From NCBI GenBank assembly GCA_951406725.2, contig OX597816.1, forward strand, positions 168,206,001-168,270,000: a stretch of DNA of 64,000 nt. The letters are read 5' to 3'. The notes under the pieces were generated by a model that saw only the letters and a list, made by a program, of their open reading frames with translations, did no database searches and was not told where the DNA came from. The position numbers and the translations under genes were made by a program. Positions 11,865 through 28,450 of this stretch are shown here, piece by piece (the stretch's first letter is position 1; every line of letters starts with the position of its first letter). The stretch comes from Octopus vulgaris (taxonomy: Eukaryota).

Positions 11865-13442
<1,578 letters not shown>

Positions 13443-15088
13443 CGGCCAGAATGTTCAGAACGGCATTGTTTTCGTCTGAAAAGTAGGTATAAGTTTTTAT
13501 CAAAGTTGTTTTATATTCTATAATTTTCACAGACAATTAATACGATATTATTTGTTATTGTCTGAGATTTTGGTATAATTTGAGAAGATAATACAAAAGT
13601 TATGGATGATTTAGTGATTTACTGCAAAACCCATGGCGGTTAAAATGATCAGAACGGTTGCTTTTACTCCATGTTTTAGTATATTTAACCGTCGAACTCT
13701 AATGTTTTGAATTTGTATACGTGATAGTTCGTTTACTAAACATTAGTAAGAATATCTGCAGTGTACTTTGTTAATATAATGCCACTTACTCCGTTACCAA
13801 TTCGTCAGCAGATTATTAAGCTTCGAAAGAAGGATAATTTAAGTATTGGGTCTATTGCAAAGATTGTTAACAAGTCAAAAAGTGTTGTTCACGGTATTCT
13901 TAAGGTCTACGATGATTGTGGTTCGTGTGAAGCAAGAAAGTCTACAGGTAGGCCAAGAAAAATGACCAAGAGAGAAGATCGTGCTATGGTAAAGTTGGTT
14001 AAAAGTGTTAGATTTAAAACTGCTGCTGCTGTTTCTCGGGAAATGAGCATTGTACTGAAGAAAACTTTATCTCGAAAAACTGTGTCTCGTCGTTTAGTTG
14101 AACATGACCTACAAGCAAGAGCACCTGCAGTGAAGCCACTGATCAGCTCCAAGAATAAAAAATGTCATCTTACCTTTGCAACCGAACATGTGTTGTGGTC
14201 TCAAGAAAAATGGCAAACGGTGCATTTCAGTGATGAATCTAAGTCTATGTTATTTGGCTCAGATGGGAAAAGGTACTTTTATCGAAAAGCAGGTGAAAAA
14301 TTGTCGCCTAAATGCCTTAAGACTAGTGTTAAATTCGGTGGAGGAAGTGTCATGGTTTAGGGGATGATATCTGGAGATGGTGTGGGCCCTTTGCTGCGAT
14401 TACATGAAAAGGTAAATGCAGGAGTTTATAAACAACTTGTAAAAGATCATGTCTTGCCTGTGCTGAGAAATTCAACTAAGCGAATCACCCATATTCATGC
14501 AGGACAATGCCCCATGTCACAAGGCTAAGGCGGTCATGAACTTCCTCGAGGCTGAAAAGGTTATTGTTATGGATTGGCCTGCTCAAAGCCCAGATCTCAA
14601 TCCTATTGAAAACATGTGCTGGAGTCGGAAAGACAACATCCAGGTCTTCTGGAGAACGTTCGAAAGCCAGAAATCCTAAAACACCCGAGCAATTATGGAA
14701 TGCCCTTCAGGAAGAATGGAATAAGATCACCCAGCAAGAAATTGAAAATTTAATTTCCTCATGCAGTCAAAGATGTCAAAGTTTGATTGAAGCTAAAGGG
14801 CTTCACACTAAATATGAAATAATTCCGGCATTCTCTGTCATTTTTGATTATTTTGTTATTTTTTCAACCGTTCTGATCATTTTGGCCACCATGGGCTTTA
14901 CAGTAAATCACTAAATCATGCATAACTTTTGTATTATCCACTCAAATTACACCAAAATCTCAGACAATACCAATTAATATTGTATTTATTGTCTGTGAAA
15001 ATTATAGAATATAAAACAACTTTGATAAAAACTTATATCTACTTTTCTGACGAAAACAATGCCGTTCTGAACATTTTGGCCGCAACTG
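13443..15088 (+). mobile_element. Tc1-family DNA transposon, IR/DR-type ~220-bp TIRs, defective
   Basis: TIRs at 13443-13660 and 14863-15088, each with outer and inner GG(CC/TT)AAAATG(T/A)TCAGAACGG direct repeats. The right end CAACTG is followed by TA. The outermost ~6 bp of the left TIR are lost. Confidence 0.95.
13779..14818 (+). pseudogene. DD34E Tc1 transposase pseudogene
   Basis: MPLTPLPIRQQII...GRPRK...HFSDESK...GGGSVMV*G (TGG to TAG at 14358), frameshift, QDNAPCH...SPDLNPIE (34 residues between D and E), second frameshift, ...GLHTKY. Confidence 0.93.
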
Positions 15089-15093
15089 TATAT

Positions 15094-15137
<44 letters not shown>

Positions 15138-15142
15138 GTATA

Positions 15143-15177
<35 letters not shown>

Positions 15178-15277
15178 TTGAAAAGATTTGTAGAGATAAC
15201 GCACGAGTAAATAGATATTTATGAAAAACAAGAACGAAAATGCTACTTTCTTAAAATTGGGTACATTTTAATTTTTC

Positions 15278-15315
15278 TTTTACATGTTTCGGTTTTTGAA
15301 AAACCTTATCAAAAA
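15278..15315 (-). ncRNA. Minimal hammerhead-like motif with U3/A8 core variant (duplicated at 17653-17690)
   Basis: Minus strand TTT-TTGATAA-GGTTTT tca AAAACC-GAAA-CATG-TA^AAA. Confidence 0.4.
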
Positions 15316-15644
15316 TATATACTAAAATAGAATGTGTAAAGAGAAAAGAACTATTTAAAAAATTAAAATTAAGATTAACATTCACAGTTTACTTTCCTTT
15401 CTCCTGCAAGAACACGTTATAATATCCTTTGGTTCTGGTAGCAGGACAAGTTCAACTGGCTGTGACCGCAAATTACTACTAACCATCTTTGTAAATTGAA
15501 TAGTGTATTAATATAAGGATAAAATCTATAAAAGATTTTATGAAGTAGCCAATGTGTAAAGCCAATTAAGGTAAAAAATCGATACGAAGTATATAATTTT
15601 TAAAAATACATTATTGTATTAAGGGCTGTTACTATAGGTAAAGT

Positions 15645-15831
15645 CACACGTTGGAAAGGGACACTAAAGTGAAACTACTTCATCAAATATACACACGTGC
15701 TGAAATCGATGGAATGATTCGATATGCAATTGAACATTTTTAAAGGATTTTTCTTTGTTCATTCCTTTGACTTCAGCACGTGTGTATATTTGAAAAAGTA
15801 GTTTCACTTTAGCGTCCCCTTCCAGTGTGTG
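15645..15831. repeat. Palindromic MITE-like element (~75-bp arms), duplicated at ~18020-18206
   Basis: cacacgttggaaagggacactaaagtgaaactact...cacacgtgctgaa is paired with ttcagcacgtgtg...agtagtttcactttagcgtccccttccagtgtgtg. Confidence 0.75.
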
Positions 15832-16029
15832 GCTTTACAAATAATATATATATATATATATGTACTCACATATATACATACATATGTACACATACATATA
15901 CATATACGCATAGATATATACACACAGATATAGATACACATATAAACAAGTACATACTTGTACATACACACATGCACACACACACACGTAGATATACATA
16001 TATGTATGTGTAAATGCAGTGTACATAAG

Positions 16030-16549
16030 AGGTATCTATCATAGGGTACCTTGCACGCTAGAGGGAATAGCCAAAATCCAAACCACTATTATGGATAAAT
16101 TTCAAAGGGAATGAAAAATAAAAACATTTACCATCTATCTCCTGGACCATGGTTTCTGACTTTATATTAGCAAATAAAATAATTTGCTAGGCGAAGTCTT
16201 CATCAACAGGTACGGCTAGATTAAACATATAAATACGAGGCAATCCAGCATGTTCCTTGTGCTTATATATTATAAATTTTCAAATCCACCAAGCAAGCGT
16301 ATTTTTTTTTTTTTTTTTTGTCGGCAGCAAATAAAATAATGCCGACGTTACGACGAAAATTTGACCAAAAGAATTATCAATAAATAATATCAGGATAAGA
16401 AAAATTTTAGAAATTTTTTCTACCAGTGTCCTAGCGTGTAGAAAAATTAGTCAATAGACTATGTATTATTCATATAAATAAAGTGTACATTTAAACACAT
16501 AAGGCGTACCTGTTGATGAAGACTTCGCCTAGCAAATTATTTTCTTTGC
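16030..16549 (-). mobile_element. Hammerhead-bearing non-coding element (retrozyme/mini-PLE family), duplicated at ~18403-18922
   Basis: Shares ordered motifs with 27820-28450 (see findings). An inverted partial HHR copy lies at 16506-16545. Confidence 0.7.
16141..16210 (-). ncRNA. Type I hammerhead ribozyme motif (U3 variant)
   Basis: Minus strand CCTG-TTGATGA-aGACTT..TAGCAAAT/ATTTGCTA..AAGTCa-GAAA-CCATGG-TC^CAGG. Confidence 0.7.
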
Positions 16550-16803
16550 AATACGAGCATTCCAATGTGTTTGGGACAGTGCAGAGGATTCATAAAGAGT
16601 TGGATGAGTCTAATGAATATTAAGAAGGTTCGGTAGCTCGGAAAATTCCCTCTGATTGTTCTGACAAGAAAAGAACTGAATTTGTTGATGAAATCCAAGC
16701 CATGATCGACAACGATCCCTTCAAGTGAATCAGGTCCATCGCCAGGGCATGGGAGTGTCTGAGTTTCTTATCGGGCAAGTAGCGCATGAAGACACTGTAT
16801 TCC

Positions 16804-17460
16804 TATAAACAACTTGTAAAAGATCATGTCTTGCCTGTGCTGAGAAATTCAACTAAGCGAATCACCCATATTCATGCAGGACAATGCCCCATGTCACAAG
16901 GCTAAGGCGGTCATGAACTTCCTCGAGGCTGAAAAGGTTATTGTTATGGATTGGCCTGCTCAAAGCCCAGATCTCAATCCTATTGAAAACATGTGCTGGA
17001 GTCGGAAAGACAACATCCAGGTCTTCTGGAGAACGTTCGAAAGCCAGAAATCCTAAAACACCCGAGCAATTATGGAATGCCCTTCAGGAAGAATGGAATA
17101 AGATCACCCAGCAAGAAATTGAAAATTTAATTTCCTCATGCAGTCAAAGATGTCAAAGTTTGATTGAAGCTAAAGGGCTTCACACTAAATATGAAATAAT
17201 TCCGGCATTCTCTGTCATTTTTGATTATTTTGTTATTTTTTCAACCGTTCTGATCATTTTGGCCACCATGGGCTTTACAGTAAATCACTAAATCATGCAT
17301 AACTTTTGTATTATCCACTCAAATTACACCAAAATCTCAGACAATACCAATTAATATTGTATTTATTGTCTGTGAAAATTATAGAATATAAAACAACTTT
17401 GATAAAAACTTATATCTACTTTTCTGACGAAAACAATGCCGTTCTGAACATTTTGGCCGC

Positions 17461-17465
<5 letters not shown>
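16804..17465 (+). mobile_element. Duplicated 3' half of the Tc1 element with right TIR
   Basis: Identical ORF fragments at 16874-17056 and 16941-17291; TIR ends CAACTG at 17465. Confidence 0.93.
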
Positions 17466-17513
<48 letters not shown>

Positions 17514-17517
17514 TATA

Positions 17518-17552
<35 letters not shown>

Positions 17553-18513
17553 TTGAAAAGATTTGTAGAGATAACGCACGAGTAAATAGATATTTATGAA
17601 AAACAAGAACGAAAATGCTACTTTCTTAAAATTGGGTACATTTTAATTTTTCTTTTACATGTTTCGGTTTTTGAAAAACCTTATCAAAAATATATACTAA
17701 AATAGAATGTGTAAAGAGAAAAGAACTATTTAAAAAATTAAAATTAAGATTAACATTCACAGTTTACTTTCCTTTCTCCTGCAAGAACACGTTATAATAT
17801 CCTTTGGTTCTGGTAGCAGGACAAGTTCAACTGGCTGTGACCGCAAATTACTACTAACCATCTTTGTAAATTGAATAGTGTATTAATATAAGGATAAAAT
17901 CTATAAAAGATTTTATGAAGTAGCCAATGTGTAAAGCCAATTAAGGTAAAAAATCGATACGAAGTATATAATTTTTAAAAATACATTATTGTATTAAGGG
18001 CTGTTACTATAGGTAAAGTCACACGTTGGAAAGGGACACTAAAGTGAAACTACTTCATCAAATATACACACGTGCTGAAATCGATGGAATGATTCGATAT
18101 GCAATTGAACATTTTTAAAGGATTTTTCTTTGTTCATTCCTTTGACTTCAGCACGTGTGTATATTTGAAAAAGTAGTTTCACTTTAGCGTCCCCTTCCAG
18201 TGTGTGGCTTTACAAATAATATATATATATATATGTACTCACATATATACATACATATGTACACATACATATACATATACGCATAGATATATACACACAG
18301 ATATAGATACACATATAAACAAGTACATACTTGTACATACACACATGCACACACACACACGTAGATATACATATATGTATGTGTAAATGCAGTGTACATA
18401 AGAGGTATCTATCATAGGGTACCTTGCACGCTAGAGGGAATAGCCAAAATCCAAACCACTATTATGGATAAATTTCAAAGGGAATGAAAAATAAAAACAT
18501 TTACCATCTATCT

Positions 18514-18583
18514 CCTGGACCATGGTTTCTGACTTTATATTAGCAAATAAAATAATTTGCTAGGCGAAGTCTTCATCAACAGG
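18514..18583 (-). ncRNA. Duplicate of the 16141-16210 hammerhead motif
   Basis: Same sequence inside the tandem duplication. Confidence 0.7.
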
Positions 18584-18924
18584 TACGGCTAGATTAAACA
18601 TATAAATACGAGGCAATCCAGCATGTTCCTTGTGCTTATATATTATAAATTTTCAAATCCACCAGGCAAGCGTATTTTTTTTTTTTTTTTTTGTCGGCAG
18701 CAAATAAAATAATGCCGACGTTACGACGAAAATTTGACCAAAAGAATTATCAATAAATAATATCAGGATAAGAAAAATTTTAGAAATTTTTTCTACCAGT
18801 GTCCTAGCGTGTAGAAAAATTAGTCAATAGACTATGTATTATTCATATAAATAAAGTGTACATTTAAACACATAAGGCGTACCTGTTGATGAAGACTTCG
18901 CCTAGCAAATTATTTTCTTTGCAA

Positions 18925-19435
18925 TACGAGCATTCCAATGTGTTTGGGACAGTGCAGAGGATTCATAAAGAGTTGGATGAGTCTAATGAATATTAAGAAG
19001 GTTCGGCAGCTCGGAAAATTCCCTCTGATTGTTCTGACAAGAAAAGAACTGAATTTGTTGATGAAATCCAAGCCATGATCGACAACGATCCCTTCAAGTG
19101 AATCAGGTCCATCGCCAGGGCATGGGAGTGCCTGAGTTTCTTATCGGGCAAGTAGCGCATGAAGACATTCTGTATTCCTCATACAAGATGGGAAATTTTT
19201 ATACGAAGCCATCAAGGACAAGTGGAAAGATCACGCTACGAAGTTTTTGAAAAAACTTACACATCCCTTCCAACCGAATATGCTTTGGTTTTTGTCAGAC
19301 GAGAAAAATTTCTGCCATGATCAGATGGTGAACATACTGAACAAACCGTTGGCTTGGCTTGCTATGTCCCCAAAACATGTACCGAGAATGATAAAAATCA
19401 AACATCCAGTCAACATCATGGTGTTTAGAGTGTAC
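18925..19435 (+). pseudogene. Mariner-like (probably maT/DD37D-type) transposase remnant; 5' part also at 16553-16803
   Basis: TVQRIHKELDE...EIQAMIDNDP...MGVPEFLIGQVAHEDI...WFLSDEKNF...KHPVNIMVFRV; truncated before the second catalytic D. Confidence 0.75.
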
Positions 19436-27677: not shown

Positions 27678-27682
<5 letters not shown>

Positions 27683-28448
27683 ATTAATCAATATTAGGGT
27701 AGCAAAAAATTCAATAGAAATTATTTTGCCACCAGCGGTCTAGTGAGAAAAAGGAAATAGTCAGAGACTATTAATAAATTCAACAACAAATTGAGGAACG
27801 GCTATAATAGGCCGTTCGACAATGCATTGTCTAAAGAAGAACAGGGTAAATGTTTTTTAAATTTTTCCTCTGATTCCGGAATTACTACTATTTGCAGTTA
27901 GCCCTGGTTGCTATTTCTAGTGGGTCGAACGGCCTATTATAGCCGTTCCTCAATTTGTTGTTGAATTTATTAATAGTCTCTGAGTATTTCCTTTTTCTCA
28001 CTAGACCGCTGGTGGCAAAATAATTTCTATTGAATTTTTTGCTACCCTAATATTGATTAATTGATAATTTTCTGATTAATTCCGAAATTGAATCGGCAGT
28101 TTATATTTGCTGCCGATAAGTTGGCGCGAGTACGACGATTTTGAAAATTTTAGGTCATATATTGCCGAGGCATGAAGGTAGCTGCCTCGTGTAATTTCTG
28201 TCCCTTTCTGGCTCCTTTACTGATGAACGCGTTGGCCTTTGGAAGATTGACTTGATTGAGTTTAATTTAATTTAATCAGGCTGGTTTACCATTAAAAAAC
28301 GCTGAAACAATGCATTGTCTAAAGAAGAACAGGGTAAATGTTTTTTTAATTTTTCCTCTGATTCCGGAATTACTACTATTTGCGGTTAGCCCTGGTTGCT
28401 ATTTCTAGTGGGTCGAACAGCCTATTATAGCCGTTCCTCAATTTGTTG

Positions 28449-28450
<2 letters not shown>
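27678..28450 (+). mobile_element. Hammerhead-bearing 488-bp-period non-coding element with inverted 5' arm, inserted in (TA)n
   Basis: 27820-27962 repeats at 28308-28450. 27678-27820 is the reverse complement of 27924-28066. (TA)n on both sides. Confidence 0.85.
28212..28327 (+). ncRNA. Type I hammerhead ribozyme motif, canonical core
   Basis: CTTTA-CTGATGA-A(c)GCGTT...AACGCT-GAAA-CAATGCATTG-TC^TAAAG; predicted cleavage after C28319. Confidence 0.8.

What the first reader, a model, noticed from the sequence alone, without database searches (positions are those of the whole stretch)
16030..16549. Diverged second family member with fully covarying hammerhead stems
Seen: on the minus strand this element has the same ordered motifs as the 28-kb element: CTAG..CTGGT..AATTTCTA..ATTGATAATT, then the TCGGCA..TGCCGA hairpin, then GCCTCGT, then the HHR, then GGTAAATGTTTTT, then the TGGYT-N6-TCTAG box. 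Yet every HHR helix differs in sequence while keeping pairing (stem I CCTG/CAGG vs CTTTA/TAAAG; stem II GACTT/AAGTC vs GCGTT/AACGC; stem III CCATGG vs CAATGCATTG). It also ends in an inverted partial copy of its own ribozyme (16506-16545). Inference: RNA structure was selected across an old, diversified family.
Basis: partly seen in the sequence, partly recalled or inferred. Interest (0 to 1): 0.85.

Follow-up and report, generated by a model that had tools for sequence, protein, structure and literature searches.

The report
Penelope-mobilised hammerhead retrozyme, variant core
This is an old copy of a short, non-coding jumping repeat with a hammerhead self-cutting RNA motif whose stems covary across about 20 subfamilies; it is likely copied by Penelope-type enzymes, a known kind of element, but this lineage has an odd ribozyme core and a predicted pseudoknot, and cutting is untested.

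Summary
Element A (16011-16553, minus strand) is related to the 28-kb element B (local alignment z about 12; 0 of 500 shuffles reach it). Both belong to a clade with at least 4,477 motif hits against 4 control hits, in about 20 subfamilies with 444-507-nt units. Hammerhead stems I and II covary (p<=5e-5) and stem III is a varying palindrome. Those ends and inversions are the Penelope insertion footprint. Lineage A carries U3.G8 (89 of 100 listed hits have U3) and often an A.A mismatch next to the core, so it may cut poorly. The window copy is decayed (90% to consensus) and duplicated locally at +2373. Covarying Penelope-type hammerhead families and retrozymes are published, and this scan has already reported the 490-495-nt sister family. 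No autonomous partner was found; splicing and cleavage are not shown. Verdict: new member of a known kind.

The parts
16011..16503 (-). Element A main arm: about 1.05 units of a 464-nt non-coding repeat; 3' end at the first fixed site, followed by TA/TG microsatellite
   Evidence: 446 of 480 aligned bases match the family consensus
16502..16553 (+). Inverted 5' arm (positions -11 to about +40 relative to core position 3); keeps the G that the main arm lost at 16215; unlike most arms it does not start at a fixed 3' site
   Evidence: (94% over 53 nt)
16422..16438 (-). CACGCTAG..CACTGGT ('CTAG..CTGGT'): 3' strands of two covarying helices that pair with the 'TGGYT..CTAG' box across the unit junction
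16321..16345 (-). TCGGCA..TGCCGA hairpin
16235..16260 (-). Hairpin ending in GCCTCGT; its 5' arm is decayed in this copy (16258, 16257, 16254 differ from consensus)
16213..16218 (-). 5' strand of the predicted pseudoknot; private G>C change at 16215 breaks it in this copy
   Evidence: other copies and laid contigs carry G
16141..16210 (-). Type I hammerhead: stem I 16210-16207/16144-16141; core box TTGATGA 16206-16200 (U3.G8); A16199.A16157 mismatch; stem II 16198-16194/16162-16158; GAAA 16156-16153; palindromic stem III 16153-16146; predicted cut between 16145 and 16144
16168..16193 (-). Internal loop of stem II holding the 3' pseudoknot strand (CGCCTA, 16193-16188) and an extension hairpin
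16058..16131 (-). 74-nt GT..AG stretch resembling the Penelope 5'UTR intron; both ends also take part in predicted helices; splicing not shown
18384..18926 (-). Second copy of element A made by a local 2.38-kb tandem duplication (or an assembly duplication), not by a separate insertion
27818..28450 (+). Element B main arm: 1.3 units of a 489-nt sister subfamily; canonical CTGATGA core at 28220; predicted cut after 28319; ends at the first fixed site before (TA)n
27678..27819 (-). Element B inverted arm, starting at the second fixed site next to (TA)n

Best explanation
Element A is a decayed copy of a non-coding 464-nt repeat with a type I hammerhead motif, and it is likely a non-autonomous Penelope-type retroelement (retrozyme) copied by a borrowed reverse transcriptase-endonuclease. 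SHOWN: head-to-tail units without an ORF; covarying ribozyme and whole-unit fold; two fixed 3' ends next to (TA)n; variable 5' ends; inverted arms in about half of the copies. INFERRED steps: (1) A more-than-unit copy is transcribed. (2) The RNA folds into a branched structure; the multi-helix domain closed by the two CTAG boxes is the likely protein-binding site, because both fixed ends lie in or just behind it. (3) A Penelope-type protein nicks (TA)n DNA and starts reverse transcription inside the RNA at one of the two sites, on one or both strands, giving 1-1.6 units plus an optional inverted arm. (4) The hammerhead, propped by a pseudoknot between the 5' tail of stem I and the stem II loop and helped by pairing of palindromic stem III between two copies, would cut multimers to unit length, and these may circularise. 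In lineage A the U3.G8 and A.A changes would slow this step; copying does not seem to need it.
For: Clade size 4,477 vs 4 control hits. Tandem period 444-507 nt in 11 clusters; arrays of up to 10 units in a sister subfamily. Covariation. 3' ends: B 25 of 30 at 132-140 nt and 5 of 30 at 229-236 nt after the cut site; A 20 of 30 at 104-166 and 10 of 30 at 216-242. (TA)4 at the 3' flank in 30 of 30 B and 21 of 30 A loci against 7-10% background. Inversions in 14 of 30 A and 15 of 30 B loci; 14 of the 15 B arms start at one of the two sites. These features match PLE insertions (PMC8557442, passages) and the two internal RT start sites of the anole Poseidon element, whose insertion in vitro does not need ribozyme cleavage (PMC11167929, parts 1-2 of 4). 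GIY-YIG-bearing Penelope-like ORFs with open 781-aa frames exist in this genome.
Against: No autonomous element sharing these termini among the 50 GIY-YIG loci examined, of 148 listed and 6,136 first-look candidates. Cleavage, circles and protein binding are untested. The two sites are about 85-90 nt apart, longer than the 30-40-nt tail in the papers. The window's inverted arm does not start at either fixed site. The A and B samples are best BLAST hits, so they are biased to long copies, and they include 2 duplicate pairs (L001/L002, L041/L049). The window copy's ribozyme region folds only slightly better than shuffles (z -1.4), and circular monomers of the A clade range from z -0.9 to -3.6.
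Confidence: 0.85

Rival explanations
1. Within the same frame: lineage A's ribozyme is catalytically dead or nearly so, and the fold is kept only as a recognition signal for the copying enzyme.
For: U3 in 89 of 100 listed hits, 83 of them with G8; 20 of 21 rows of the main A cluster are U3/G8 and 15 of 21 have A.A beside the core. C3-G8 is a required pair and single changes abolish activity in PAc (PMC11167929). None of the 30 A loci examined reaches two units.
Against: B has a canonical core and also stays under two units in 30 of 30 loci. GAAA, the UH site, the palindrome and the pseudoknot are kept in A, and stem II shows a compensatory change within the U3 lineage (L005, L010). A natural U3..G8 variant is mentioned in PMC7151607 (one passage). 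A.A also occurs in subfamilies with tandem copies (L112/L113).
Confidence: 0.4
2. The elements are 5'-truncated terminal stubs (pseudo-LTRs) of an autonomous Penelope-like element, not a self-propagating short unit.
For: Most minimal hammerheads in animal genomes are single motifs from truncated PLEs (PMC4209133). The ATG|GTAAAT..AG stretch looks like a PLE 5' intron.
Against: Copies that extend past one unit repeat the same short unit at a fixed period with no ORF. Neighbouring PLE ORFs at L035, L094 and L133 have their own, unrelated 3' ends.
Confidence: 0.07
3. The covarying 'pseudoknot' helix is an inhibitory hairpin that keeps the ribozyme unfolded in the monomer or circle, not a tertiary prop of the active fold.
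For: In the minimum-energy circular fold of the A consensus the same two strands close a plain hairpin over the core box.
Against: Its position (5' tail of stem I with the loop of stem II) fits the known stem I/II pseudoknots that speed cleavage (PMC3088659, passages). Spacing to the core stays within 3 nt in 19 of 20 subfamilies.
Confidence: 0.25
4. Satellite-type DNA spread by recombination, with no RNA step.
For: Some subfamilies form arrays, and the window copy itself was duplicated at DNA level.
Against: Dispersed copies on many chromosomes, fixed 3' ends, 5' truncation, inversions, and compensatory changes that only make sense for a folded single strand.
Confidence: 0.03

Closest known systems
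Metazoan non-LTR retrozymes (Cervera and de la Pena 2020, PMC7229834, parts 2-3 of 6 and passages read; Li, Clavereau and Pollet 2026, bioRxiv 10.64898/2026.07.22.740005, parts 1-3 of 5 read; supplements not seen)
   Same: Non-coding, AT-rich tandem units with one type I hammerhead each; predicted highly paired circle; proposed to be non-autonomous PLE derivatives.
   Different: Units here are 444-507 nt (170-400 nt in the 2020 paper; 51-972 in the preprint). Lineages A and B are mostly 1-1.6 units with inverted arms. In the parts read I saw no cephalopod, no pseudoknot and no fixed internal 3' ends. Circular RNA is not shown here.
Minimal hammerheads in PLE pseudo-LTRs (Cervera and De la Pena 2014, PMC4209133, parts 1-2 of 4 read; Lunse et al. 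2017, not held, seen only through the review PMC6765202, passages)
   Same: Palindromic helix III, short helix I, unpaired base after A9, many covarying families per genome, copies close by on opposite strands, core variants (U3-A8).
   Different: U3 here is opposite G8, not A8. There is an extra A before G12, a long stem II extension and a covarying pseudoknot. Lunse et al. may already describe some of these; I could not check.
EN+ Penelope-like elements (Craig et al. 2021, PMC8557442, passages; Frangieh et al. 2024, PMC11167929, parts 1-2 of 4)
   Same: Partial tandems, inverted 5'-truncated arm, optional 3' tail from two RT start sites, (TA)n targets, no discernible target-site duplication, 75-nt intron in D. 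virilis Penelope.
   Different: No RT or GIY-YIG ORF; tail about 85-90 nt instead of 30-40; no matching autonomous family found.
Pseudoknotted hammerheads (Perreault et al. 2011, PMC3088659, passages and section 8)
   Same: [quoted passage not shown]
   Different: Here the partner is an internal loop followed by a long hairpin, in a repetitive type I element; repetitive type I ribozymes were excluded from part of that paper's analysis.

Membership tests
Type I hammerhead ribozyme | Core C3 U4 G5 A6 N7 G8 A9 with a C3-G8 pair | tested here: not met
   Element A reads TTGATGA (U3.G8), family-wide. Element B and most sister subfamilies have C3-G8.
Type I hammerhead ribozyme | G12 A13 A14 A15, U16.1 and an NUH cut site | tested here: met
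   GAAA..GTC in A and B.
Type I hammerhead ribozyme | Three helices in type I order, with covariation | tested here: met
   stems I and II p<=5e-5; stem III fully palindromic in 17 of 20 subfamilies. The order is canonical, not rewired.
Type I hammerhead ribozyme | G10.1-C11.1 pair adjoining the core | tested here: not met
   A.A in the window copy and in 15 of 21 rows of its cluster, A-U in 6; B alternates G-C (15) and A-U (13) of 29.
Type I hammerhead ribozyme | Match to an Rfam hammerhead model | tested here: inconclusive
   No hit at E<=1 for A or B; the long stem II insert may hide it.
Type I hammerhead ribozyme | Self-cleavage | not testable with these tools
   Needs a bench assay.
Metazoan non-LTR retrozyme | Short non-coding unit repeated head to tail, one hammerhead per unit | tested here: met
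   Period 460-466 for A, 487-490 for B; no ORF of 150 aa or more over either element. The window copy has one whole ribozyme, a 'monomer' in the terms of Li et al.
Metazoan non-LTR retrozyme | Expressed as linear and circular unit-length RNA | tested here: inconclusive
   Contigs of runs only guessed to be RNA cover the sister unit and its head-to-tail joint in 4 of 4 runs; tandem DNA gives the same joint.
EN+ Penelope-like element | RT plus GIY-YIG ORF | tested here: not met
   None in the unit: non-autonomous.
EN+ Penelope-like element | Partial tandem, inverted 5' arm, optional tail | tested here: met
EN+ Penelope-like element | Microsatellite target | tested here: met
   (TA)4 at 30 of 30 B and 21 of 30 A 3' flanks vs 7-10% background.
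EN+ Penelope-like element | Retained spliceosomal intron in the terminal repeat | tested here: inconclusive
   74-nt GT..AG present, but AG is replaced by GG in subfamilies that keep the helix (clusters 5 and 7), and no spliced joint was listed in contigs.
EN+ Penelope-like element | Termini homologous to an autonomous family in the same genome | tested here: inconclusive
   Not found in 50 GIY-YIG loci; the sample is small and dominated by a few families.

The most novel reading that the evidence does not exclude
This clade is a structured-RNA parasite of Penelope enzymes whose entire 450-500-nt circle is under base-pairing selection, with a pseudoknot-propped dimeric hammerhead and a separate RT-landing domain that sets two internal priming sites. 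Lineage A spread after losing two canonical core pairs, a natural experiment showing that the fold, not self-cleavage, is what Penelope-type retrotransposition needs.
Probability: 0.3. Interest if true: 0.65.

Novelty: new member of a known kind. Interest (0 to 1): 0.4.

Why it matters
The function of hammerheads in Penelope-like elements, and the enzyme that copies animal retrozymes, are open questions. This clade offers matched natural variants (C3 vs U3 core, array-forming vs single-unit subfamilies) and a covariation-defined RNA domain at the two priming sites, so both can be tested directly. The class and most features are already published or were reported earlier in this scan, so the gain is in detail, not in kind.

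Tried and rejected
Rfam: no hammerhead match. Autonomous partner: a Pfam GIY-YIG search gave other PLE families with unrelated termini; ORFs beside L035, L094 and L133 are separate insertions. Expression: no RNA holder listed. Contigs of 7 different runs guessed to be RNA were laid on A and on a sister unit; no GT..AG skip of the intron-like stretch was listed, but contigs drop rare forms, so this is no proof of absence, and contig ends cannot show a cut site. Intron as the sole reason for the conserved CTAG: rejected, since it lies in a covarying helix. 5' ends at the cut site: 17 of 67 A rows have a boundary in the 45 nt shown, about 6 within 5 nt after the cut (by eye), inconclusive. 5' ends just upstream of the ribozyme: 10 boundaries at -1 to -25 vs 7 at -26 to -70 in 128 rows (28 of B, first 100 of 1,968 of a sister family, by eye, no test run), a weak hint of a start site or RT stall. 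An ungapped MAFFT alignment of the pseudoknot region did not keep the register and was not used for pair counts. In the tree two rows labelled CT are parsing errors (they are C-G). Two extra pattern searches selected copies mutated at the first stem I base, which lowers the stem I score.

Full report
Observation. A pattern scan of the window found three complete hammerhead-like motifs with a palindromic stem III: element B at 28220, element A at 16206, and a copy of A at 18579 (two further hits were weak AT-rich matches). The second A lies in a 2.38-kb tandem duplication with 6 substitutions, so it is not an independent insertion. A and B align far better than shuffles (z 11.5 and 12.3; 0 of 500 reach the score). 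Rfam gave no ribozyme match.

Family. The window lies on contig C3 of G000, a 2.8-Gb animal genome. Its repeats look cephalopod-like to me; that is recalled and also stated in earlier notes, not tested. DNA searches returned copies of A at about 80-87% and of B at 86-98% on many contigs (only 40 candidates were scored each). A pattern for the 3' half of the ribozyme plus the downstream box gave 4,477 hits against 4 for the reversed control, a lower bound. From the fetched loci, 99 ribozyme rows fell into 23 clusters. Unit length is 444-507 nt in the 11 clusters where it could be measured, and some subfamilies form arrays of up to 10 units. No ORF of 150 aa or more overlaps either element.

Covariation. 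I used 20 of the 23 clusters; 3 were dropped because a 5' junction fell in the upstream segment. Native partners paired better than swapped ones: stem I -3.7 vs -1.5 kcal/mol, stem II -3.4 vs -0.7 (both p<=5e-5, 20,000 permutations); a control pairing gave p=0.83. Stem III is fully palindromic in 17 of 20, with different sequences. A further helix joins the segment 7-12 nt upstream of the core with the internal loop of stem II (-7.2 vs -5.7, p=3e-4). I first saw it by eye and then tested it, and its GG/CC anchors were chosen to maximise pairing. Its third pair is C-G in 14, T-A in 4, T-G in 1 and mismatched in 1; on a tree built without these strands the T-A state needs at least 3 changes (34 rows). 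The permutation test ignores relatedness. Over 11 circular monomers (mean identity 54%) RNAalifold predicted 110 pairs, 41 with a double change; some of these may reflect alignment error. Single monomers folded at z -0.9 to -5.4 against 20 shuffles each.

Core variant. U3.G8 is not a private change: of the first 100 of 142 exact lineage hits, 89 have U3 (83 with G8, 5 with A8, 1 with U8), 9 have C3 and 2 have A3. The pattern was drawn from lineage A, so it describes that lineage only; sister subfamilies have C3. The window copy also has A.A where G10.1-C11.1 is usual, as do several other subfamilies. It has decayed since insertion: 90% identity to consensus and a G>C change at 16215 that breaks the pseudoknot, while its inverted arm keeps the G. 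This copy is unlikely to be active.

Insertion footprint. In 30 A and 30 B loci (best BLAST hits, biased to long copies, with two duplicate pairs), 3' ends fall at two sites: B 25 at 132-140 nt and 5 at 229-236 nt after the cut site; A 20 at 104-166 and 10 at 216-242. (TA)4 follows in 30 of 30 and 21 of 30 loci against 7-10% background. Inverted arms occur in 14 and 15 of 30, and 14 of the 15 B arms begin at one of the same two sites. A's arm in the window is an exception. Partial tandems, inverted arms, an optional tail and (TA)n targets are PLE hallmarks (PMC8557442, passages). Two internal RT start sites explain the tail in the anole element, whose ribozyme is protein-assisted and dispensable for insertion in vitro (PMC11167929, parts 1-2 of 4).

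What was not found. No autonomous family with these termini among 50 GIY-YIG loci. The 74-nt GT..AG stretch matches the size of the Penelope intron, but the donor was my search anchor (so its conservation is circular), the AG is replaced by GG in two subfamilies that keep the helix, and no spliced joint was listed in contigs (RNA status is a guess). It may be a relic. No snRNA-type promoter was evident.

Mechanism. Most likely (0.85): transcription of a more-than-unit copy, folding, binding of a borrowed Penelope-type protein, nicking of (TA)n, and internal priming at one of two sites on one or both strands. The ribozyme would trim multimers as a dimer, propped by the pseudoknot. The structure and the footprint are shown; transcription, cutting, circles and the enzyme are inferred. 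Whether lineage A still cuts is open (0.4 that it is nearly dead).

Comparison and novelty. It works like a metazoan non-LTR retrozyme moved by a PLE (PMC7229834; bioRxiv 10.64898/2026.07.22.740005). Covarying, palindromic PLE hammerhead families are described in PMC4209133 and stem I/II pseudoknots in PMC3088659. Lineage A fails two strict core criteria, so it is a hammerhead variant of unproven activity. Five literature searches showed no title or abstract describing this clade or a pseudoknot in PLE hammerheads, but I read few of the hits, Lunse et al. 2017 was not held, and no supplements were seen. Earlier notes of this scan already describe the 490-495-nt sister family with two-armed insertions; those are unchecked AI notes, not independent support. 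Verdict: real, well supported, new member of a known kind; interest 0.4.

Noticed in passing
window 14427-19179: 2.38-kb tandem duplication (99.5% identical) holding part of a Tc1-like transposon, element A and a mariner-like fragment; real duplication or assembly artefact.
   Followed up: partly
window 13740-14820 and 16554-16804/18927-19430: Broken Tc1-like transposase gene and a mariner-like fragment abutting the 5' end of element A; named by eye from the translation, the Pfam check did not run.
   Followed up: no
L067, L072 and many rows: Young Penelope-like family with an open 781-aa ORF and a pLTR of repeated CCAAT/TGACGT-like boxes, a TATA-like box and a donor-like site; no canonical hammerhead was found by my scan.
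   Followed up: partly
L140 (G000:C1:31730000-31739000), L101-L109: Sister subfamily of 492 nt with a GUA cut site and canonical core, at least 1,968 core hits with close relatives, in long two-armed arrays; the best candidate for bench tests.
   Followed up: partly
L096, L132: Subfamilies with a CCGAUGA (U4C) core.
   Followed up: no
L008, L016, L026, L033, L036, L037, L069, L188-L193, L197: Several unrelated hammerhead-bearing repeat families with palindromic stem III beside these loci; one sits behind GIY-YIG ORFs.
   Followed up: no
L035:1373-1984 (minus strand): A B-type unit joined without a TA spacer to the 3' end of another PLE family; possible template switch or nested insertion.
   Followed up: partly
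window 16125-16134 with 16168-16175: The donor-like TGGTAAAT can pair with the 3' strand of the stem II extension in several subfamilies, a possible strand-swap switch; not kept in all.
   Followed up: partly
window 12000-13500: About 1.5 kb of almost pure (TA)n.
   Followed up: no
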